The notes: generated from the letters alone by a model not told the origin. A DNA stretch of 64,000 nt from Nitrosopumilus sp. (GCA_964225175.1 CAXQNK010000105.1:15120-79119), one strand, 5' to 3'; shown: positions 2,207 to 30,523, counted from the first letter of the stretch. Numbers and translations: made by a program.

Positions 2207-3124
2207 ATGAATGGCGCCGCCGCGAAAAGACCCTCCTTTGCACCTCGGAACTGGCCGGGCTGGTTTTCAGTGGCGGCCATATGGTTACTGGGGCGTTTGC
2301 CGCACCGACCGACCGCGGCGACCGCGGAGGCAATTGGCGTGCTTTTATACCGGTTTGCAAACCGCAGGCGTCTTGTCGCCGAGCGCAACATTGAGCGCTG
2401 TTTTTCCTCACTGAGTGAGATCGAGCGTAAAGAGATCATAAAAGCGAATTTCAGGTTCGTGGGCCGCATGCTGGTCGAAATGGCCTGGAGTTGGTCGACT
2501 CGTGACCGCCTGATCGATGCCCTCGGCGAGGTGCATGGGCTGGAGCATTTGCGATCGGCAGAGGAAAAACACAGAGGTGTCCTGGTGGTGACCTTGCACG
2601 CCACGTGCTTGGAGATGGGTGCGCGGATCGCGGCTCTTCAGGTTCGGGCGAGCGGCATTTATCGACCGCTAAAGAATGAAGTGATGGAGTGGTATCAGAA
2701 TCGGTGCCGTGCAAGATTCTGCAAATCAATGCTGAGCAAACGCAATCTTCGCGCAGGCCTTCGCGCCCTCAAAGCCGGTGAGGTGTTGTGGTATGCCCCC
2801 GATCAGGATTTTGGAAAAAAACAAAGCGTGTTCGTGGATTTTTTTGGCATTCCTGCAGCCACGTTGCTTGCCACTCACAGGCTGCCGAGTCTCACTGGTT
2901 GCGAAGTGGTCATGATGTTTCCCCATTTCGATCGGACCACAGGGAAATATCACGTCGAATTTTCCCCGGCGCCGGAAAATTTTCCCGGGCAAGACCCCGT
3001 GGTTGGCCTGGGTATGATCAACGCACTCATCGAAGACTGGGTCAGGGCCCATCCGGAGCAGTACTGGTGGGTTCACCGGCGATTCAAAACGCGCCCCGAC
3101 GGCCAACCCCCATTCTATGATTGA
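2207..3124 (+). CDS. lpxL: lipid A biosynthesis lauroyl/myristoyl acyltransferase (LpxL/HtrB family)
   Basis: 305 aa, divergent from waaA. Family motifs present: WYAPDQDFG and HPEQYWWVHRRFKTRP at the C-terminus. Confidence 0.85.
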   Translation: MNGAAAKRPSFAPRNWPGWFSVAAIWLLGRLPHRPTAATAEAIGVLLYRFANRRRLVAERNIERCFSSLSEIERKEIIKANFRFVGRMLVEMAWSWSTRDRLIDALGEVHGLEHLRSAEEKHRGVLVVTLHATCLEMGARIAALQVRASGIYRPLKNEVMEWYQNRCRARFCKSMLSKRNLRAGLRALKAGEVLWYAPDQDFGKKQSVFVDFFGIPAATLLATHRLPSLTGCEVVMMFPHFDRTTGKYHVEFSPAPENFPGQDPVVGLGMINALIEDWVRAHPEQYWWVHRRFKTRPDGQPPFYD

Positions 3125-22634: not shown

Positions 22635-23198
22635 TCAAGTCGCTTGGTTCGTGCCGGGAAAACGCCGGCATTGCGGGTGGGGGTCGACCTGAAGCACATT
22701 GCACATTGAGGCTACCGTCCGGTACCACCCGACCAGGATGATGAATTCTACGAGCTGCTCATCACTGTAACGGGCCCTCAGCTGTGCCCATGAGTCATCA
22801 GACAGTTGCGCGGATTCTGATAGCTCGTCAATCATGTCGATCAGCTGCGCATCCGATTCTGACCAGGCTTCCCGGATGCATCCCTGCATGATGGTGGCGT
22901 CCACCTGATCTTGCGTGAGCCCGGCGGCTTCGGCGAACACGGTTGCGTGAAGTCCCCACTCATGTTCGGCACCCAACATGCCCGTGACGCGGTGAACAAC
23001 AATTTCCCTGTCGCGTAGGGGGAGCAGACCATGCCCCAATAGTCCGGCGCCGAGGATACCCGCGCGCGTAGCCAGGTCGGGGTGGATGTGAAAAGCCTCG
23101 AAAATCTCCGGGGTCTCGATGTCGGTTTGGCCTTTCCATCGGGCAATGTTTTTCGCCACGTCCGGCGAATAAGGTGGTTTCGGGGGCTTTAGTCGCAT
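22635..23198 (-). CDS. carboxymuconolactone decarboxylase (AhpD-like) family protein
   Basis: Trimmed to Met at 23198, which is preceded by AAGGAG. About 187 aa and all-helical. The central region reads LRDREIVVHRVTGMLGAEHEWGLH. The family call rests on overall resemblance only. Confidence 0.6.
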   Translation of the reverse strand: MRLKPPKPPYSPDVAKNIARWKGQTDIETPEIFEAFHIHPDLATRAGILGAGLLGHGLLPLRDREIVVHRVTGMLGAEHEWGLHATVFAEAAGLTQDQVDATIMQGCIREAWSESDAQLIDMIDELSESAQLSDDSWAQLRARYSDEQLVEFIILVGWYRTVASMCNVLQVDPHPQCRRFPGTNQAT

Positions 23199-23630
23199 TG
23201 CGGCGGACTCCTTGCGGATGTGTGTGGTCACAGGTGTTCAGGCATGAAAAAAATTATAAACCAGCCCGAATGATTCCGAGCAGGCAAGAGCAGGTGGCTA
23301 AAAAGTCAGGTAAAAGCCAGTCGCTCCCGGCTGGCTTTTCTGGTGGGCTGGTCAGCCTTTGAGGGATTCTGTCTTGTGGGTGGCGATGTATTGAACATCT
23401 GCCGAACAGTCCATGCGAGCCCCGCACTCGTCCTGGAATTGCTGTCTTCAGAACCGGCTCTGGACTCGCTGCGAAAGCGATTGACAAACACCTGGCGTTG
23501 CCTTTTGGGGAGGGAGATGAATGGGTGTCAGTGCCGAATTGATTCCGCAGCGCGTCCCATCGTGAGCGAGGGTGCTTACAGAAGTCTCCGAGGCCGGAAG
23601 TCCGGCTCGATCTCATTCAACGCCTCAGCA

Positions 23631-24707
23631 CTACATACCTTTGCGGGTTTGAATGATTTCTGTAGAGTTGGCGGGCAGGCTGAACGACACCCCGTCGTAG
23701 CCCACCGTGTACTCGGGGAAAATGTCGCCCGCACCATTCAGCCACAGTGCTTCTTGCCCCGGCACCATGATTGGCGGTACCACGTGGTAATACAGCAGGT
23801 GACCGACTCTGGCGTCGCGCGCTGTTTCTGCGGCCTCCCGTGGGCTGGCGTGATAGTCGGGGACGTCAAACATGACCTTGGCCAAAAGCTCGTTACCCAG
23901 GTTTTTGGCCGTGTCTTCCATCATGCCGATGAGTTCAGGCGAAAGCGCCTCATGGACCAACAGGTCAATACCTTCTGCGAAGCGCCTGATGTTGTCGGAT
24001 TGAGAGGTGTCGCCGCTAATCAGCATGGTTCGCCCCCCATAAGTGAAGCGATAGCCCACCGCGGGCGAGACGGGTGCGTGATCGACTCTCAACGCCTCGA
24101 CTGTTAAGCCATTCTTGCTGAAGACGGTCGTGAGCGCGCCATCTGGCGGTGTCGTGAAAGGCAAGGCGGTTAAGCCGGCAGCCGAGAGTGGAGCGACAAA
24201 GTCTCCGTGATGATTGTGCCGATAGGTGAAGTCGGCGGTATAAGCGGCGTTAAAGCCGGCGATGACGTCTTCCACGCCCTCGGGGCCATACACAGTCAGG
24301 GGCGTGAGCTTATCTCCTGTGGTCCAACGTAAGGTAGCCAACTCACCAAGCCCGTCGATGTGATCAGAGTGAAAGTGTGTGAGAAACACGGCTTCTACAC
24401 CACCGAGAGGGTAGCCCAGCCGCGCGAAATTACGGGGGCCATTGGCGCCGGCATCGACAAGGAATAATTGGTCTCCTGCTACCACCACCACGCAAGGGCC
24501 CGAGGCGCGGGGTGAGGGCATCGGGCCGCCCGCGCCGCAGAGTGCGACGTGCAGGCCATCTTCCAGAAGCTCTACTTGATTCGTACCCATTTGCTTGGGG
24601 AGGGCTGCCGCCATCAAGCGTTCGGCAATTGAAGCTCGCTGGGTGTAACCAACACCCAGCGCAATGGATATCGCCAGCGCAAGAACAACCATGTTGCGTG
24701 TTTTCAT
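23631..24707 (-). CDS. secreted MBL-fold metallo-hydrolase (RNase Z/beta-lactamase superfamily)
   Basis: 358 aa with a signal peptide (MKTRNMVVLALAISIALGVG) and the metal motif LTHFHSDHIDG. Confidence 0.8.
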   Translation of the reverse strand: MKTRNMVVLALAISIALGVGYTQRASIAERLMAAALPKQMGTNQVELLEDGLHVALCGAGGPMPSPRASGPCVVVVAGDQLFLVDAGANGPRNFARLGYPLGGVEAVFLTHFHSDHIDGLGELATLRWTTGDKLTPLTVYGPEGVEDVIAGFNAAYTADFTYRHNHHGDFVAPLSAAGLTALPFTTPPDGALTTVFSKNGLTVEALRVDHAPVSPAVGYRFTYGGRTMLISGDTSQSDNIRRFAEGIDLLVHEALSPELIGMMEDTAKNLGNELLAKVMFDVPDYHASPREAAETARDARVGHLLYYHVVPPIMVPGQEALWLNGAGDIFPEYTVGYDGVSFSLPANSTEIIQTRKGM

Positions 24708-24782
24708 AATGAACGTCCTCGGCGCTTTTCAAGACGGTGCACAAGAGTCCAGGTATTGGCACCATCGATGCCGGAATTTAAT

Positions 24783-24858
24783 GGATAGGAAGCATAAACC
24801 ACCTGCTTCGCAATTCAGCCCGACATCAGTGGCCCCGGAGCTATCTCCCTGCCACCAG
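24783..24858 (-). repeat. conserved upstream element, copy C (short form)
   Basis: Minus strand: CTGGTGGCAG..CCGGGGCCACTGATGTCGGGCTGAATTgcgaagcAGGTGGTTTATGCTTCCTATCC. It overlaps the 2OG-oxygenase stop and ends 76 nt before the MBL hydrolase ATG. Confidence 0.8.
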
Positions 24859-25929
24859 ACGCTTGAGGCTGCGCATGGGCCGGGTGACCTTCCAGGACGT
24901 GGAGTTTTCGAGTTCTTCGATTCGCGCCGCCAAACGCCTGACCTCCGCCTCCCGGCGCCCCAACATTTCCTGCAGGCCTTCCAGGTCGTCCGATTCGCTG
25001 TCTTCTTCCGGCACCGGGGGGGGCTTGCGCCCCTGTTGCTCCCTGGCGTGGTTCAGCTCGGTATTGAGCTGCATGATGTTACCGTACAGCCGCCGCAGAT
25101 GCTGGTCACGCCGGGTCACCAGGTTGCGGATATGTTGCAGCCGCTCAGCACTCAGCACCATGCCGGCATGCATGTCCTCGGGGAGGTGCTCTTCGACGTA
25201 AATGGTGGAATGCGCCGGACCCAGCTCATCCTCGGGCCGCGTGTCAGTGTAGAAGTACAGCGCAAAGCTCTTGCGCGAGAGATGACGCTTGTCCTCCGGC
25301 AGTGCAATCACCGGAAAACCGTGCCAGGAGTATTCGTTGGTCTCGAAGATCACGGCGCGGTTGAAGGCCGGGGTGACGGTGATGATCTCGTCCTGCGAGG
25401 GCGGCAGGTAGGGGTCACGATGCAGCTGGATGGAGCCACCCCACTCGTCACGCCACTCCGGGGTGAGATACACGATGAGGTTGAGTCGACGGTGTTGGCG
25501 GGTGATCGGATGCAGGTTGAAGTCCACGTGGGCGTCCAGGCTCTGGCCATGTCGGTTCTCGTGCGTTCCGCCACCGAAGTAATTCGGGTCGTATTCGAGG
25601 TCCGGCACGCCGGTGATGCGGGAAATCAGCATGCGGAAATCGTCGCTCTGCACCAGATCGTCCAACTCCCGCCAGTCGGGTCCGAGTTCGCGCACTTTCT
25701 CGTGCACGCATTTGCCGCCCACCTCGCCGTTTTCGTTGATGGACAACTGCTCGTCGAACTCAGGGAAGGACTCGGCGAGCCGCGCCGCGAGATCGGTGCT
25801 GAAGAAGCCGTCGATACACACGTGTCGAAACGGCTGCGCAGCTGCGAAGCGCCTTGCAATCTCATCCGCCTGTTCCATGACTTGCTGGTTGATGTCCCTG
25901 TCCAGTGTTGCCTTCATCGCTGCGTTCAC
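24841..25929 (-). CDS. 2OG-Fe(II) oxygenase (prolyl 4-hydroxylase-like) with C-terminal coiled-coil tail
   Basis: 362 aa (GTG start at 25929, or ATG at 25917). The N-terminus reads PFRHVCIDGFFSTDLAARLAESFPEF. It has the HxD motif (LDAHVDFN) and a tail with ...EVRRLAARIEELENSTSWKVTRPMRSLKR. Confidence 0.7.
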   Translation of the reverse strand: MNAAMKATLDRDINQQVMEQADEIARRFAAAQPFRHVCIDGFFSTDLAARLAESFPEFDEQLSINENGEVGGKCVHEKVRELGPDWRELDDLVQSDDFRMLISRITGVPDLEYDPNYFGGGTHENRHGQSLDAHVDFNLHPITRQHRRLNLIVYLTPEWRDEWGGSIQLHRDPYLPPSQDEIITVTPAFNRAVIFETNEYSWHGFPVIALPEDKRHLSRKSFALYFYTDTRPEDELGPAHSTIYVEEHLPEDMHAGMVLSAERLQHIRNLVTRRDQHLRRLYGNIMQLNTELNHAREQQGRKPPPVPEEDSESDDLEGLQEMLGRREAEVRRLAARIEELENSTSWKVTRPMRSLKRLVAGR

Positions 25930-25958
25930 CTGGGTGCTCTATTTCCACTCGATGGTAC

Positions 25959-26067
25959 GGATAGGAAGTATAAACCACCTAGTTGGGACTGCAGCCCGCT
26001 GTCCGCGGCCCCGGGAAATCGCATAAGGTAACAAGGGCTGATCCGCCGGGCTGCTGGTCACCAGTTC
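25959..26067 (-). repeat. conserved upstream element, copy B (long form)
   Basis: Minus strand: GAACTGGTGACCAGCAGCCCGGCGGATCAGCCCTTGTTACCTTATGCGATTTCCCGGGGCCGCGGACAGCGGGCTGCAGTcccaactAGGTGGTTTATACTTCCTATCC. It ends 30 nt before the oxygenase GTG. Confidence 0.8.
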
Positions 26068-26317
26068 GTCTCAGTATGCCTCCTCCGGGCCAAATTGGCC
26101 CCATGGCCGTGACGCAGCCGAATCCGGCCCAGGACTCGACGCCCCATTAGCTGGCCCCAAACAGACTCTTGCCGTGCTCAGCTTTCCGGTAGCGATTCGG
26201 TCAGCGCTCGATCTGCCGGAAGGAACGACGACCGGCGATGGCAGTTTCTGGTTCGGAGTGTTCGGAGATCGAACCGGACGGACTCGCAGATGTTTTGGGG
26301 GGCACGAAATTTTTCTA

Positions 26318-28510
26318 TTACCGTGCCTCGAACTGCAGTTCGTAGAATGCGAGCCCCAACATTCGACGATCAGGGCTGACGTTCAGTTGGGATGGTGATA
26401 TTGCGTCGGGTAATTCAACGCTAATGCGCGTCGAACCATCCGCCATGAGCAGACCGGCGGGTATCTCCACTTCAATCATCTGGAATTCACCTTTCTCCAG
26501 TGAGAAACGGGAAATTTCTGAACCGCCAACGCGCACGGTTACTCTTTGGCTGTCAATTAGCCCCGGCGCCAAGAAGGGTTTGACCCTCGCGCTCAGCAAG
26601 ATATCGGTCTGCGTCTTCTCAAAGGGAATCAACAGGCTGGCTGCTTTACCATTGGTCCAAGTGATTGCCTTGTCCGTGCTCATGGCCCATCCGCTCTCAA
26701 TGAATGCCCTGAAGGTTCCCTCGGTACCAAAGCTCAACCTGGTCCCGAAGATATACTTTTCTCGGTCATTCAGAGGGTTGACCTCGTGTTCCGAACGAAT
26801 GTCCCAGGCCGTAAGATCATAAACGCTGCCCCTGATTTCATACTCCGTAAACTGATCAAACCTGTCTTTTGCCGCGGCGTCATTTCGATGGATCAGGCTG
26901 TTATAAAAATAACGCGATCTGTTTTTACTGCTGCCCTCAGCAAATAAGCGAGTGCCCGGAAAGTTCGGTTCCAATCCGAGTAGATCAAGAATCGTCGCCG
27001 GAATATCGCTTAACTCGGCCCAGGTATCCGAAATGTGGAGTCTCCCTTGAGCATACGGTGGCTTTATCAGTAGCAGGGGTAAGGGATTACCCCAAAGTCG
27101 GTCGAGGGCCTTACTGCTGTCGACTGTATTTCCGTCGGATGTTTTCAGGTCAAAACCCACACCGCCGCCATGATCGCTGTGGATCAGGATCAAGGACTCG
27201 TCGTAAACTCCGAGTTCCATCAATCTGCGCACAAAATTCAGCGAGTTTTCAAGCGTGCAGAGAGACTGAGCGGCTGTATTTTCGAAGGTATATTCCACTT
27301 CATGACCAATAAACGAGCAATCCTCTCTGGTGACAAGCGGCGCATGAGGCGTCACCAGGTGAATGAATTTGTAGCGTGGGCTTCCGTCAATGACAGTAAG
27401 CTGATCTGTCAGGTCCAGCAGGAACGAGTTGTGCGCAAAGTGTTCAAACTGGGTTCCCGCTCCATTTAACAGAGAAGATAACCACCAGTTACCTGATCTG
27501 TAGACCAGAGGCTTCAGGAAATGGGGGGTTTGGCGGAACAAAGATACATCCAGCAATTTCGCGACGCTCGTCCGGGTGGCCTCAGATCCGAAACTGTAGG
27601 GAGCCGGCACACGAAAGTAACTGGAGTAAAAACTGCGCGGGGGATTCCACCACACGGGTGTCGCTATATCAATGGAGTATCCTTTCTCGGCCAGTTCGGA
27701 GTAAATGTTCTGTCCGTTTAGTGCTTGCTCGTGGTAGTGCGATATGGTCGTGTCGAACCGGTAAGGAACTCCCGTCAGACTGGCCGGAATGCTCAGGTAC
27801 GTGACTGGGGAGGACGTTGTTGAGTCTCGGAAAAAGGTGAAACCGGGCAAATCAGCGCCGAGACGGTTTTCCCGCTCTAAAAGACTTTCAAATATGCTGG
27901 CCTGAAAGCCGTCGAGAACCAGATGAAAAACGTTTCCCTGGCTCGAGACGATTGGTAGCTCTGGCGGAAGCGTGTCGCTACCATCAATCCTGCTGGCGGG
28001 TTTGTTCCATTGCAATTGAATGGCACCGGCTGCCTGCAACACGAGCAACAATATCGCGACTTGCCAGCCTTGGCGAAGCAGGACTTGCCGCCATTTTAAA
28101 AAAATCGCTGCTGCTACCAGCCAGATGGCAAGATCGACCAGGTTGCGCCCACTTTTCGTGAAATCCAGAGGTGTCCCGTCGAGCACACCCACATCCCAAA
28201 CAAGCAAGTTTCCATGTGTGTAGGTCACGACACCCAGAAACAGGAAAGTGAGTCTGAGAGTCTGGCCCCAAGGGTTCTTCAGCAGCAGCACAGGAACAAG
28301 GAGAATCAGGGTCAGGATGAGCCACAGAGACACCAGCCCGCTAACCAGCATTTCCTGAAAGCTCGCAACAAATTCGCCAGAGTTGGAAGCATAAATGTGG
28401 AACGTGCCCAGCAAGCACAGGTTCGTGCTGAGCAGCAGAACCGGCAAGACGGAGCTTAAAAGGTCAAGACGGAGTGCCCCCTTCTCTTTTTTGAGCGAAG
28501 AAAAATTCAC
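26318..28510 (-). CDS. membrane-anchored sulfatase-like (LTA synthase / phosphoglycerol- or phosphoethanolamine-transferase family) protein
   Basis: ORF 26318..28582. The N-terminal 24 codons are the repeat element, so GTG at 28510 is the preferred start (uncertain). It has several N-terminal TM segments, then an alkaline-phosphatase-superfamily core (FHLVLDGFQASIFE, FIHLVTPHAPL, LILIHSDHGGG) and a C-terminal beta-rich domain. Confidence 0.75.
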   Translation of the reverse strand: MNFSSLKKEKGALRLDLLSSVLPVLLLSTNLCLLGTFHIYASNSGEFVASFQEMLVSGLVSLWLILTLILLVPVLLLKNPWGQTLRLTFLFLGVVTYTHGNLLVWDVGVLDGTPLDFTKSGRNLVDLAIWLVAAAIFLKWRQVLLRQGWQVAILLLVLQAAGAIQLQWNKPASRIDGSDTLPPELPIVSSQGNVFHLVLDGFQASIFESLLERENRLGADLPGFTFFRDSTTSSPVTYLSIPASLTGVPYRFDTTISHYHEQALNGQNIYSELAEKGYSIDIATPVWWNPPRSFYSSYFRVPAPYSFGSEATRTSVAKLLDVSLFRQTPHFLKPLVYRSGNWWLSSLLNGAGTQFEHFAHNSFLLDLTDQLTVIDGSPRYKFIHLVTPHAPLVTREDCSFIGHEVEYTFENTAAQSLCTLENSLNFVRRLMELGVYDESLILIHSDHGGGVGFDLKTSDGNTVDSSKALDRLWGNPLPLLLIKPPYAQGRLHISDTWAELSDIPATILDLLGLEPNFPGTRLFAEGSSKNRSRYFYNSLIHRNDAAAKDRFDQFTEYEIRGSVYDLTAWDIRSEHEVNPLNDREKYIFGTRLSFGTEGTFRAFIESGWAMSTDKAITWTNGKAASLLIPFEKTQTDILLSARVKPFLAPGLIDSQRVTVRVGGSEISRFSLEKGEFQMIEVEIPAGLLMADGSTRISVELPDAISPSQLNVSPDRRMLGLAFYELQFEAR

Positions 28511-28625
28511 GGATAGGAAGTATAAACCACCTTTTTTGGAATTCAGCCCGATATCAGTGGCCTCGGACCTGCGATATTGCATAACCTAACAAGAGCTGAT
28601 CCGCCGGGCTCGCTGGCGCCAGTTC
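28511..28625 (-). repeat. conserved upstream element, copy A (long form)
   Basis: Minus strand: GAACTGGCGCCAGCGAGCCCGGCGGATCAGCTCTTGTTAGGTTATGCAATATCGCAGGTCCGAGGCCACTGATATCGGGCTGAATTccaaaaaAGGTGGTTTATACTTCCTATCC. It lies between the groEL terminator and the sulfatase-like gene. Confidence 0.8.
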
Positions 28626-28704
28626 ATCACGTTCATGCTTCGGCAGTTGCACGGGTTTGTCTGCAGCATACTGGCGCGGTTGCCTGTCGGTAATGCGCAG
28701 GGGC

Positions 28705-28740
28705 AAAAAGAAAACCCCGCCGAAGCGGGGTTTCTTTTCT
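28705..28740 (-). terminator. rho-independent terminator of groESL
   Basis: Minus strand: CCCCGC-ttcg-GCGGGG followed by TTTTCTTTTT, about 120 nt after the groEL stop. Confidence 0.8.
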
Positions 28741-28858
28741 CTCACCGGGTGGAATCTGGTGAGAACAAATGGTTCGTGGGAAGGCGCTGGAGCCCTGGGT
28801 AATGACCGTCGAAGCAGGTGAACGGCAACGCCCCCACGGGGCATTTGGGCCAGCAGAT

Positions 28859-30523
<1,665 letters not shown>

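What the first reader, a model, noticed from the sequence alone, without database searches (positions are those of the whole stretch)
24783..28625. A conserved 75-115 nt element sits just 5' of each of three consecutive minus-strand genes
Three copies are present: A at 28511-28625, B at 25959-26067 and C at 24783-24858.
- **Shared block.** Read on the gene strand, all three end with AGGTGGTTTAT(A/G)CTTCCTATCC. This 22-nt block is identical in A and B and has one substitution in C. It is preceded by CGGGCTG(A/C)A(T/G)T and a variable 7-nt spacer.
- **Extra arm in A and B.** These two also share a 5' arm: GAACTGG(C/T)G(C/A)CCAGC(G/A)AGCCCGGCGGATCAGC(T/C)CTTGTTA..TTATGC.
- **Possible structure.** The left arm AGCCCG-GCGG-ATCAG can pair with CTGAT-at-CGGGCT in copy A. 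In copy B it can pair with CCGC-ggacag-CGGGCT. The long-range stem is therefore kept through different partners, as expected for a structured RNA or DNA.
- **Position.** Orientation relative to the downstream gene is always the same. The block ends 0 nt (A), 30 nt (B) and 76 nt (C) before the candidate start codon. Copy A lies immediately after the strong groEL terminator, where a new promoter is needed.
- **Promoter-like feature.** TATACT/TATGCT inside the block could be a -10 element.
- **Possible fourth copy.** A shortened relative (GGGCTGGTTTATAAT, 23255-23269) sits upstream of the next minus-strand gene, the AhpD-like one.

I do not recognise the element as any known riboswitch, REP, attC or operator.
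Basis: seen in the sequence. Interest (0 to 1): 0.78.

Follow-up and report, generated by a model that had tools for sequence, protein, structure and literature searches.

The report
Leftover ends of a jumping gene
The three repeats are leftover "origin" ends (oriIS) of a rolling-circle insertion sequence of the IS91/ISCR family, the kind known for capturing antibiotic-resistance genes, and here they mark the seams of a patchwork of imported genes next to groEL in a marine bacterium.

Summary
In detail: three co-oriented minus-strand copies share AGGTGGTTTAT(A/G)CTTCCTATCC, with 0 expected by chance.

They are not a new regulatory RNA. The block is the conserved right-end (oriIS) sequence of IS91-family/ISCR rolling-circle elements.
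- It matches the ISCR1 terminus, GTGGTTTATACTTCCTATACCC, which lies about 230 nt after the ISCR1 transposase gene on resistance plasmids.
- In other genomes the same block ends a multicopy repeat. That repeat follows IS91-type transposase genes and breaks assemblies.
- Copies share the 3' end and are cut off at varying points on the 5' side.

The window copies are such remnants: B is 246 nt, A 121 nt and C 59 nt. The 64-kb window has no transposase.

Each remnant is a seam:
- B is followed by the last six codons of a foreign guaA, then a 2OG oxygenase gene.
- C is followed by an MBL gene carrying a stub of its native neighbour gene.
- A abuts the start of a low-GC sulfatase-family gene.

The long-range stem and the fourth copy are not supported. 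An outward promoter, as shown for ISCR1, is plausible but untested.

This is a new member of a known kind, of modest interest.

The parts
28510..28630 (-). Copy A: a 121-nt 5'-truncated oriIS-containing 3' end of an IS91-family/ISCR-like element. Its true end is probably 28509.
   Evidence: nhmmer with the full-length ori profile aligns it to positions 131-250, E=7e-23. The terminal block is at 28511-28532. The last 24 nt are identical to the ISCR1 end.
25958..26203 (-). Copy B: a 246-nt remnant covering essentially the whole non-coding oriIS region, plus degenerate last codons and the stop region of the transposase gene. Its true end is probably 25957.
   Evidence: nhmmer aligns it to positions 5-250, E=1e-48; the profile includes the sister-strain B. 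Independently, blastn of the arm against metagenome locus L051 gives 76% over 87 nt, E=2e-11. Alignment A2 shows the same. In L013 the same region directly follows the transposase C-terminus.
24782..24840 (-). Copy C: a 59-nt remnant with one substitution in the block (TATGCT). It starts immediately after the stop codon of the 2OG oxygenase gene. Its true end is probably 24781.
   Evidence: nhmmer aligns it to positions 187-250, E=5e-11. Block located; sequence read.
28519..28546 (-). Candidate outward sigma-70-like promoter in copy A: CTGAAT-N16-TATACT (3/6 and 5/6 matches). The equivalent is CTGCAG-N16-TATACT in the window's B and CTGAAT-N16-TATGCT in C.
   Evidence: Read from the sequence. 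It falls below the strict consensus scan, which found no sites. In ISCR1 the experimentally active PCR1-2 promoter has its -10 (TTTATA) in the same block (PMC6218425).
26318..28510 (-). Segment 1: a sulfatase-family membrane protein gene abutting the end of copy A. The gene caller's 754-aa version starts at the ATG at 28582, inside copy A.
   Evidence: Pfam Sulfatase. Homologues are at most 46% identical and their N-termini align right at the junction. GC is 50-53%, against 56-62% in the flanks.
25939..25956 (-). Remnant of the last six codons of a guaA (GMP synthase) gene, ACC ATC GAG TGG AAA TAG = TIEWK*, directly after the end of copy B.
   Evidence: In the closest homologous locus, L070, guaA ends ...ACGATCGAGTGGGAATGA 28 nt before the 2OG oxygenase gene.
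24841..25929 (-). Segment 2: a 2OG-Fe(II) oxygenase gene with alternative start at the ATG at 25917. Its native context elsewhere is guaA-2OG-deaminase.
   Evidence: Pfam 2OG-FeII_Oxy_3. The closest non-self homologue is 74% identical, and the named hits are Xanthomonadales or Lysobacterales. Context shown.
23631..24707 (-). Segment 3: an MBL-fold hydrolase gene, a conserved Halieaceae gene displaced from its usual neighbourhood.
   Evidence: Homologues of 65-91% identity, named Halieaceae, Luminiphilus and Seongchinamella. Relatives have the order TonB-dependent receptor | MBL | arylsulfatase(-) | DSBA | TetR | MFS. DNA homology with them runs only from 24660 to 23477.
23464..23553 (+). Stub of the 3' end (about 30 codons) of the convergent arylsulfatase gene that neighbours MBL in relatives. 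It was carried along with the MBL segment.
   Evidence: tblastx gives 80% over 30 aa to the end of the L064 sulfatase gene, and blastn gives 79% over 67 nt to L068.
28711..28734 (-). Intrinsic terminator of groEL, about 80 nt upstream of copy A.
   Evidence: Terminator scan: 10-bp stem followed by a T run.
25981..26004 (-). Strain-specific cluster of 7 substitutions in the core of copy B.
   Evidence: The three sister contigs compared base by base (L041-L043) share the same 7 differences at these positions, out of 37-59 over 13-21 kb. In the 11 sister-MAG loci examined, B's core reads GCTGACATCGGGCTGAATTCCAAAAAA, like A.

Best explanation
**What it is.** A, B and C are 5'-truncated remnants of the right (oriIS) end of an IS91-family, ISCR-like insertion sequence. 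Such elements encode a Y2 HUH transposase and move by rolling-circle replication. Replication starts at oriIS, just downstream of the transposase gene, and runs back through the element towards terIS. When termination fails, adjacent DNA is carried along.

**What is left here.** No transposase remains in the window, only the origin-proximal 246, 121 and 59 nt.

**What follows each remnant.** Each remnant sits at a seam, and the DNA after each one comes from somewhere else:
- a low-GC sulfatase-family gene after A;
- a guaA tail plus a 2OG oxygenase gene after B;
- an MBL gene plus a stub of its native neighbour after C.

The region downstream of groEL is therefore a mosaic assembled by repeated ISCR-type insertion or capture events followed by deletions. 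The oriIS remnants are the scars.

**Inferred, not shown.**
- As in ISCR1, the remnants may provide outward promoters for the co-oriented downstream genes, which have lost their own upstream regions. Candidates are CTGAAT-N16-TATACT, or the TTTATA -10 of ISCR1's PCR1-2.
- A and B exceed the roughly 82-100 bp reported as sufficient for oriIS function, so a transposase supplied in trans might still act on them. C is probably too short.
For: **The block is the ISCR/IS91 oriIS**
- blastn against plasmids hits 54 records. In the three inspected (L038-L040) the match lies about 210-230 nt downstream of the ISCR1 transposase stop, on the same strand, just before blaPER-1 or blaNDM-1.
- The ISCR1 end reads AAAAAGGTGGTTTATACTTCCTATACCC. 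The literature gives the 22-bp oriIS-like site as GTGGTTTATACTTCCTATACCC (PMC13023784).

**It is the end of a multicopy transposase-linked repeat**
- 37 genome loci carry the exact 21-mer. Twenty-seven of them are in one Lysobacterales MAG, where many copies lie about 118 nt from a contig end.
- Sequences diverge right after CTATCC plus 2 nt.
- ORFs directly upstream in L001 and L014 match Pfam Zn_Tnp_IS91 and Y2_Tnp.
- ISCR1-like transposase fragments occur in 13 of the genome loci (L001, L014 and eleven loci of the Lysobacterales MAG).
- In L013 the transposase C-terminus (...CPDCGG...LKLV*) runs straight into the 250-nt ori region.

**Copies form a 5'-truncation series with a common 3' end**
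- Lengths seen include 36, 40, 44, 63, 164, 220 and more than 249 nt, and about 440 nt in L013.
- The window copies fit this series.

**The junctions are seams between unrelated DNA**
- guaA tail after B.
- The MBL segment's homology ends inside the neighbouring arylsulfatase, and relatives have a different context.
- The sulfatase homologues' N-termini start at the junction with A, and its GC content is atypical.

**Promoter precedent**
- The ISCR1 oriIS region raises downstream expression 13- to 15-fold through PCR1-1 and PCR1-2. PCR1-2 is TTCGGA-N18-TTTATA (PMC6218425).
Against: - There is no transposase gene or terIS anywhere in the 64-kb window, so the parent element of these copies was not seen. 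Scans for the A/B arm found nothing in viral or JGI metagenome contigs.
- The tetranucleotide target (GTTC/CTTG) that flanks oriIS in IS91, IS801 and IS1294 is absent. Flanks are random from position +3.
- The subterminal palindromes described for IS91-family oriIS are not statistically detectable here.
- Promoter activity is untested. The hexamers are weak, 8 of 12, and fall below the scan threshold. The spacing of ISCR1's PCR1-2 -35 element is not preserved.
- The order and mechanism of the events that built the array cannot be reconstructed from these data.
Confidence: 0.9

Rival explanations
1. One reading: a structured cis-regulatory element (an RNA leader or a DNA operator) shared by three genes, with a long-range stem maintained through different partners.
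For: - The copies are co-oriented and lie just 5' of three genes.
- AGCCCG...CGGGCT and ATCAG...CTGAT can pair in copy A (minimum-free-energy structure).
Against: - There is no Rfam match on the copies, even at E<=1.
- Folding energies are not better than shuffles.
- No conserved helix and no compensatory pairs across 12 family members.
- Copy C lacks the 5' arm entirely.
- The same sequence ends IS91-type transposons in four phyla or orders.
- In other genomes the downstream ORF is on either strand.
Confidence: 0.03
2. A generic non-autonomous repeat (REP, BIME or MITE) scattered through intergenic regions and unrelated to a specific transposase.
For: - Copy number is high in one MAG, and several roughly 250-nt copies there have no adjacent transposase (for example L005 and L018).
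- Orientation relative to neighbouring genes is mixed.
Against: - There are no terminal inverted repeats and no palindromic unit.
- Copies share one end only and are truncated from the other.
- The conserved end is the ISCR1 oriIS.
- The 250-nt region is contiguous with the transposase C-terminus in L013.
- Only three copies occur in the 64-kb window, all at seams.
Confidence: 0.04
3. A shared promoter or operator of a regulon, such as a binding site for an alternative sigma factor or a regulator, duplicated in front of three co-regulated genes.
For: - A -10-like TATACT/TTTATA lies in the invariant block.
- The genes are co-oriented.
- The ISCR1 precedent shows the block can act as a promoter (PMC6218425).
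Against: - Conservation extends over 59-246 nt and is collinear with the 3' region of an insertion sequence, including the tail of its transposase gene. That is far more than a binding site.
- The three genes have different phylogenetic origins and truncated former neighbours.
- A 21-nt block identical across Gammaproteobacteria, Rhodothermales and Bryobacterales points to a mobile element rather than a host regulon.
Confidence: 0.03

Closest known systems
ISCR1 (IS91-like 'common region' element of complex class 1 integrons), oriIS end
   Same: - The terminal sequence is almost identical: window AAAAAAGGTGGTTTATACTTCCTATCC, ISCR1 CAAAAAGGTGGTTTATACTTCCTATACCC.
- Both lie about 200-230 nt downstream of an IS91-type transposase gene.
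- In both, the DNA immediately downstream is foreign, co-oriented cargo.
- The ISCR1 promoter PCR1-2 has its -10 inside the same block (PMC6218425).
   Different: - The window copies have no transposase and are 5'-truncated.
- Related transposases seen in other genomes are only about 49-63% identical to ISCR1's.
- Upstream of the last roughly 30 nt the oriIS region is not alignable by blastn.
- The host is an environmental Halieaceae chromosome next to groESL, and the cargo is not resistance genes.
- There is no link to a class 1 integron 3'-CS.
IS91 / IS801 / IS1294 (founding IS91-family members)
   Same: - Rolling-circle family with functionally distinct oriIS and terIS ends, no terminal inverted repeats and no target duplication.
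- One-ended transposition mobilises adjacent DNA.
- About 82 bp of the right end suffices for function (PMC13181058).
- Copies A and B exceed that length.
   Different: - Those elements require a GTTC/CTTG-type tetranucleotide next to oriIS. No such consensus flanks the 38 copies examined.
- The subterminal palindromes are not demonstrable here.
- No terIS was identified.
Truncated ISCR copies flanking resistance modules (for example the ISCR2/CR2-sul2 unit and tandem ISCR1 repeat units)
   Same: Directly repeated, partial ISCR ends separate gene modules. Tandem oriIS duplications occur upstream of blaPER-1 in L038 and L040. Tandem ISCR1 units are described in PMC13023784.
   Different: Here the array lies in a free-living marine bacterium's chromosome. 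Its cargo is housekeeping-like or of unknown function, and all the elements are reduced to 59-246 nt.

Membership tests
IS91 family / ISCR group (oriIS end) | Conserved terminal oriIS sequence (ISCR1: GTGGTTTATACTTCCTATACCC) | tested here: met
   GTGGTTTATACTTCCTAT is identical in A and B and has one substitution in C. It is followed by CC rather than ACCC (PMC13023784).
IS91 family / ISCR group (oriIS end) | In full-length copies it lies at the 3' end, downstream of and co-oriented with a Y2 HUH transposase gene (Zn_Tnp_IS91 plus Y2_Tnp domains) | tested here: met
   - Met in relatives: L001 and L014 by Pfam, L013 with the transposase C-terminus contiguous with the ori region, and ISCR1 plasmids.
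- Not met in the window itself, which has no transposase (best tblastn E=0.56). The window copies are therefore remnants, not elements.
IS91 family / ISCR group (oriIS end) | One common end with variable extent on the other side; no terminal inverted repeats | tested here: met
   Copies form a 5'-truncation series with an identical 3' boundary. No inverted-repeat partner was found in the region.
IS91 family / ISCR group (oriIS end) | Target tetranucleotide (5'-GTTC, CTTG or GTCC) immediately adjacent to oriIS, as in IS91, IS801 and IS1294 | tested here: not met
   After CTATCC plus 2 element-specific bases, flank composition is random in 38 copies. The window flanks read GAAT, ACCA and TAAA. 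This argues against IS91 in the strict sense, but not against the ISCR-like group.
IS91 family / ISCR group (oriIS end) | Imperfect subterminal palindrome(s) in the oriIS region | tested here: inconclusive
   - Short complementary runs exist, such as ATCAG/CTGAT in A and ATCAGT/ACTGAT in L036, but at chance frequency.
- There is no conserved helix.
- Folding energies are unremarkable.
IS91 family / ISCR group (oriIS end) | Rolling-circle transposition initiated at oriIS, with terIS at the other end | not testable with these tools
   This needs transposition assays or detection of circular intermediates. No terIS was identified.
Structured cis-regulatory RNA (riboswitch or leader) | Conserved secondary structure supported by covariation, or a match to a curated family | tested here: not met
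   No Rfam match on the copies. None of the predicted pairs shows a compensatory change.
REP / MITE | Short palindromic unit or terminal inverted repeats, complete short copies, no linkage to one end of a transposase gene | tested here: not met
   No terminal inverted repeats. The copies are contiguous with the transposase 3' end in relatives. Truncation is one-sided.
Integron attC | Inverted core sites R'' (RYYYAAC) and R' (GTTRRRY) flanking an imperfect palindrome at the 3' end of each cassette | not tested
   No attC model was available. By eye, only copy A has a GTTAGGT, with no complementary ACCTAAC partner; B has GTTACCT. The identification as oriIS makes this reading unnecessary.

The most novel reading that the evidence does not exclude
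The orphan oriIS remnants may not be inert scars. They could be the working joints of a cassette-like system with three properties:
- Incoming rolling-circle units would be integrated exactly at an existing oriIS end. This would explain the direct-repeat arrays seen here and in 5 of 6 multi-copy loci elsewhere.
- Each remnant would supply an outward promoter to the gene behind it.
- Remnants of 82-100 nt or more (A and B) would remain mobilisable by a transposase supplied in trans.

Under this reading, an environmental ISCR family would build and shuffle chromosomal gene arrays much as integrons do.
Probability: 0.15. Interest if true: 0.55.

Novelty: new member of a known kind. Interest (0 to 1): 0.25.

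Why it matters
The finding changes an 'unknown conserved element' into a recognisable signature, the oriIS end of an ISCR/IS91-type rolling-circle element.

It also shows that a four-gene stretch beside groESL in a marine Halieaceae genome is a mosaic of imported or relocated DNA.

**Practical consequences**
- The 754-aa sulfatase gene model starts inside an IS remnant and is probably wrong at its N-terminus.
- The three genes should not be read as an operon or regulon of common ancestry.
- The GGTGGTTTATACTTCCTAT motif is a useful marker for finding ISCR-like seams in environmental genomes.

**Wider point**
It adds an example of ISCR-type gene capture outside the clinical resistance context. 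The oriIS core is nearly identical to that of ISCR1, which bears on where such elements reside in nature.

Tried and rejected
- **Coding hypothesis.** The block and core are in frame with an ATG in A and B (peptide ...GGLYFLS). I rejected this because the differences between A and C fall at first and second codon positions, and B's frame stops after 31 codons (read).
- **Parent element.** Exact-pattern scans for the A/B arm (GCCCGGCGGATCAGCNCTTGTTA) found nothing in viral contigs or JGI metagenome contigs. A looser pattern gave 6 loci, of which only L051 was informative.
- **Deletion variant.** Four Logan contigs start with A-type spacer + block + B's flank. At first this looked like a variant lacking the sulfatase module. 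I rejected it because the sister MAG contigs examined carry a B allele whose core equals A's. A and B then share 43 nt, more than k=31, which breaks the graph there.
- **Fourth copy.** Two nhmmer profiles give no hit. A Smith-Waterman alignment is only marginal.
- **Stem.** Fold energies, RNAalifold and a complementary-run test were all negative.
- **Strict promoter scan.** No sites in 23100-28900.
- **Rule that copies precede co-oriented genes.** In other genomes the downstream ORF orientation is mixed.
- **RAYT-like transposase in L028 (3011-3706).** It lies 2.4 kb from the copy and is unrelated to it.
- **Transposase coding remnant upstream of B or A.** tblastn with the L013 C-terminus found nothing significant.

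Full report
**1. The observation**

The 22-nt block AGGTGGTTTATRCTTCCTATCC occurs exactly three times in the 64-kb window, all on the minus strand. The sites are 28511-28532, 25959-25980 and 24783-24804, and none appeared in 100 shuffles. Alignment and repeat finding confirm that all three copies share about 60 nt. They also show that A and B share a further 5' arm. Each copy lies upstream of a co-oriented ORF:
- a sulfatase-family protein after A;
- a 2OG-Fe(II) oxygenase after B;
- an MBL-fold hydrolase after C.

Rfam finds nothing at gathering thresholds and there are no tRNAs. A permissive Rfam scan of 24600-28800 hits only the groEL terminator, below threshold.

**2. What the block is**

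*It ends a multicopy repeat.* A scan of 185,579 species genomes for the exact 21-mer returned 37 loci. Twenty-seven are in a single Lysobacterales MAG, where many copies lie about 118 nt from a contig end. That is how an assembly-breaking repeat looks. The other hosts are other Lysobacterales and Gammaproteobacteria MAGs, a Rhodothermales MAG and a Bryobacterales MAG. Lining the copies up shows that the sequence is shared upstream of the block and diverges right after it. The block is therefore the 3' end of a repeat.

*The true terminus is 2 nt beyond the block.* The two bases after CTATCC are R then C in 35 of 38 copies (R in 36, C in 37) and track the subfamily. From position +3 the flanks are random.

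*The repeat follows an IS91-type transposase gene.* In L001 and L014 the ORF just upstream on the same strand carries the Pfam domains Zn_Tnp_IS91 and Y2_Tnp.

*It matches ISCR1.* blastn of copy A against 72,556 plasmids hit 54 records through its last roughly 30 nt. In the three records inspected the match lies about 210-230 nt downstream of the ISCR1 transposase gene, on the same strand. It sits immediately before blaPER-1 or blaNDM-1. The ISCR1 end reads ...GGAGCAAAAAGGTGGTTTATACTTCCTATACCC. The literature describes GTGGTTTATACTTCCTATACCC as the conserved oriIS-like site at the right end of ISCR1 (PMC13023784).

*The whole 250-nt region belongs to the element.* ISCR1-like transposase fragments are scattered through the Lysobacterales contigs. 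In L013 the transposase C-terminus (...MSWMQRLRRVFAIYIETCPDCGG...LKLV*) runs directly into a full copy of the roughly 250-nt region that ends in the block.

The element is therefore the oriIS-containing 3' end of an IS91-family, ISCR-like rolling-circle insertion sequence.

**3. Anatomy of the window copies**

The window contains no IS91-type transposase; the best tblastn hit has E=0.56. A profile built from full-length oriIS regions places the copies as follows:

| Copy | Coordinates | Length | Profile positions | E-value |
|---|---|---|---|---|
| B | 26203-25958 | 246 nt | 5-250 | 1e-48 |
| A | 28630-28510 | 121 nt | 131-250 | 7e-23 |
| C | 24840-24782 | 59 nt | 187-250 | 5e-11 |

The profile includes the sister-strain B. 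B's arm is independently similar to metagenome locus L051, at 76% over 87 nt with E=2e-11.

In other genomes the copies likewise share the 3' end and are cut off at different 5' points. Lengths include 36, 40, 44, 63, 164, 220 and more than 249 nt, and about 440 nt in L013.

**4. The fourth copy and the stem**

*Fourth copy.* Neither profile detects anything at 23255-23269. A Smith-Waterman alignment of 23480-23200 to copy B is only marginally above shuffles, with 6 of 300 reaching its score. The site is part of a terminator-like hairpin.

*Stem.*
- Single-strand folding energies are no better than shuffles.
- RNAalifold on 12 diverse family members finds only a tiny hairpin inside the invariant block and no compensatory pair.
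- Complementary runs next to the conserved GATAC motif are at chance level.
- The 'alternative partner' in B comes from a strain-specific allele. In the 11 sister-MAG loci examined, B's core reads GCTGACATCGGGCTGAATTCCAAAAAA, like A's. The window differs at 7 clustered positions, 25981-26004.

IS91-family oriIS regions are said to contain imperfect subterminal palindromes (PMC13181058). My data neither confirm nor exclude that.

**5. The copies sit at seams**

*After B.* Two bases past the block, the sequence ACC ATC GAG TGG AAA TAG encodes TIEWK*. In the closest homologous locus, L070, guaA ends ...ACG ATC GAG TGG GAA TGA (TIEWE*) 28 nt before the 2OG oxygenase gene. That gene is followed there by a deaminase gene. 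The best non-self homologue of the 2OG gene is 74% identical, and the named hits are Xanthomonadales or Lysobacterales.

*After C.* The MBL gene is a conserved Halieaceae gene with homologues of 65-91% identity. In relatives it always sits in the order TonB-dependent receptor | MBL | arylsulfatase(-) | DSBA | TetR | MFS. DNA homology with those loci runs only from 24660 to 23477. It includes about 30 codons of the convergent arylsulfatase's 3' end, at 23553-23464. The MBL gene was therefore moved together with a stub of its neighbour.

*After A.* The sulfatase-family gene has only distant homologues, at most 46% identical. Their N-termini align right at the junction. The called 754-aa protein starts 72 nt inside the IS remnant, which is probably an artefact. 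The gene's GC content is 50-53%, against 56-62% around it.

*The arrangement in sister strains.* The same three-copy arrangement is present in all the sister MAG contigs that span it.

**6. How it most likely works**

*Shown.* The copies are oriIS-end remnants, and they sit at the junctions of DNA segments with different origins.

*Established for the family.* IS91-type transposases initiate rolling-circle replication at oriIS and proceed towards terIS. Failed termination mobilises adjacent DNA. About 82 bp of the IS91 right end suffices for function (PMC13181058). The ISCR1 oriIS region carries two outward promoters that raise expression of co-oriented downstream genes 13- to 15-fold. These are PCR1-1 (TAAACG-N17-TAAGAT) and PCR1-2 (TTCGGA-N18-TTTATA), and the latter's -10 lies inside this block (PMC6218425).

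*Inferred.*
- The region was built by repeated ISCR-type insertions or captures and subsequent deletions that spared only the origin-proximal ends.
- The remnants may drive the downstream genes. Two of those genes have demonstrably lost their native upstream regions.
- The candidate promoter is CTGAAT-N16-TATACT in A. It is weak, matches 8 of 12 positions and is missed by the strict scan.
- The PCR1-2 -35 spacing of ISCR1 is not preserved here.
- A and B are long enough to be potentially active origins in trans, while C is probably not.
- The exact sequence of events cannot be recovered.

**7. Comparison with known systems, and novelty**

The element works like, and passes the sequence and position tests for, the ISCR/IS91 oriIS. 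It fails one test that applies to IS91, IS801 and IS1294, the flanking GTTC/CTTG tetranucleotide.

It is best filed as remnants of an ISCR-like member of the IS91 family: a new member of a known kind. Truncated ISCR copies separating captured genes are familiar from resistance regions. What is somewhat unusual here is the setting:
- the host is a free-living marine Halieaceae, and the array is chromosomal, beside groESL;
- the cargo is not resistance genes;
- the oriIS core is nearly identical to ISCR1's, although related transposases are only about 49-63% identical to ISCR1's.

**8. Verdict**

The interpretation as a novel structured regulatory element is not supported. The promoter idea has a good precedent but is untested. 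Interest is modest, at 0.25.

The most novel reading still open is that orphan oriIS ends act as integration joints and promoter donors in a cassette-like array. Direct-orientation tandem copies in 5 of 6 multi-copy loci hint at this without showing it.

Noticed in passing
window 25981-26004 (minus strand, core of copy B): The window strain differs from the three sister contigs compared base by base (L041-L043) at 7 clustered positions. In the 11 sister-MAG loci examined, B's core reads like A's. On the element strand six of the seven changes replace A/T with G/C, and the region is otherwise 99.6-99.7% identical. Possible causes are a gene-conversion tract from another copy, local decay, or an assembly or polishing artefact.
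   Followed up: partly
window 28511-28582: Gene callers start the 754-aa sulfatase-family protein at the ATG at 28582, inside oriIS remnant A. Homologues begin at the junction, so the first 24 or so residues are probably not real. The GTG at 28510 may itself be created by the junction (element ...CCGT joined to flank GAAT...).
   Followed up: partly
L038 2975-3036 and L040 around 2950-3035 (ISCR1 plasmids carrying blaPER-1): The 28-nt ISCR1 terminus AAAAAGGTGGTTTATACTTCCTATACCC is tandemly duplicated, and L040 also has a partial extra copy, just upstream of blaPER-1. This suggests re-initiation or recombination events at oriIS.
   Followed up: no
L008, L010, L013, L023, L006 (Lysobacterales MAG JABAAB01): Five of six loci with two oriIS copies have them in direct orientation, usually 2-3 kb apart and often with one full and one truncated copy. 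This resembles the window's array. L011 is the one inverted case.
   Followed up: partly
L022 15-721 and 809-871: A 63-nt truncated oriIS copy lies next to an ISCR1-like transposase fragment in the opposite orientation, which looks like a nested or rearranged insertion.
   Followed up: no
window 23264-23281: A terminator-like hairpin, GCTCGGAATCATTCGGGC followed by TGGTTTATAA, lies upstream of the CMD/AhpD-like gene.
   Followed up: partly
L044, L045, L062, L063 (Logan contigs from four sequencing runs): All four contigs begin at the same base, 7 nt before block B. This is explained by A and B sharing 43 nt in the common allele, which exceeds k=31. It is a reminder that these remnants fragment short-read assemblies.
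   Followed up: yes
L028 3011-3706: An IS200-like / REP-associated tyrosine transposase (RAYT-type) ORF lies 2.4 kb from an oriIS copy and appears unrelated to it.
   Followed up: no
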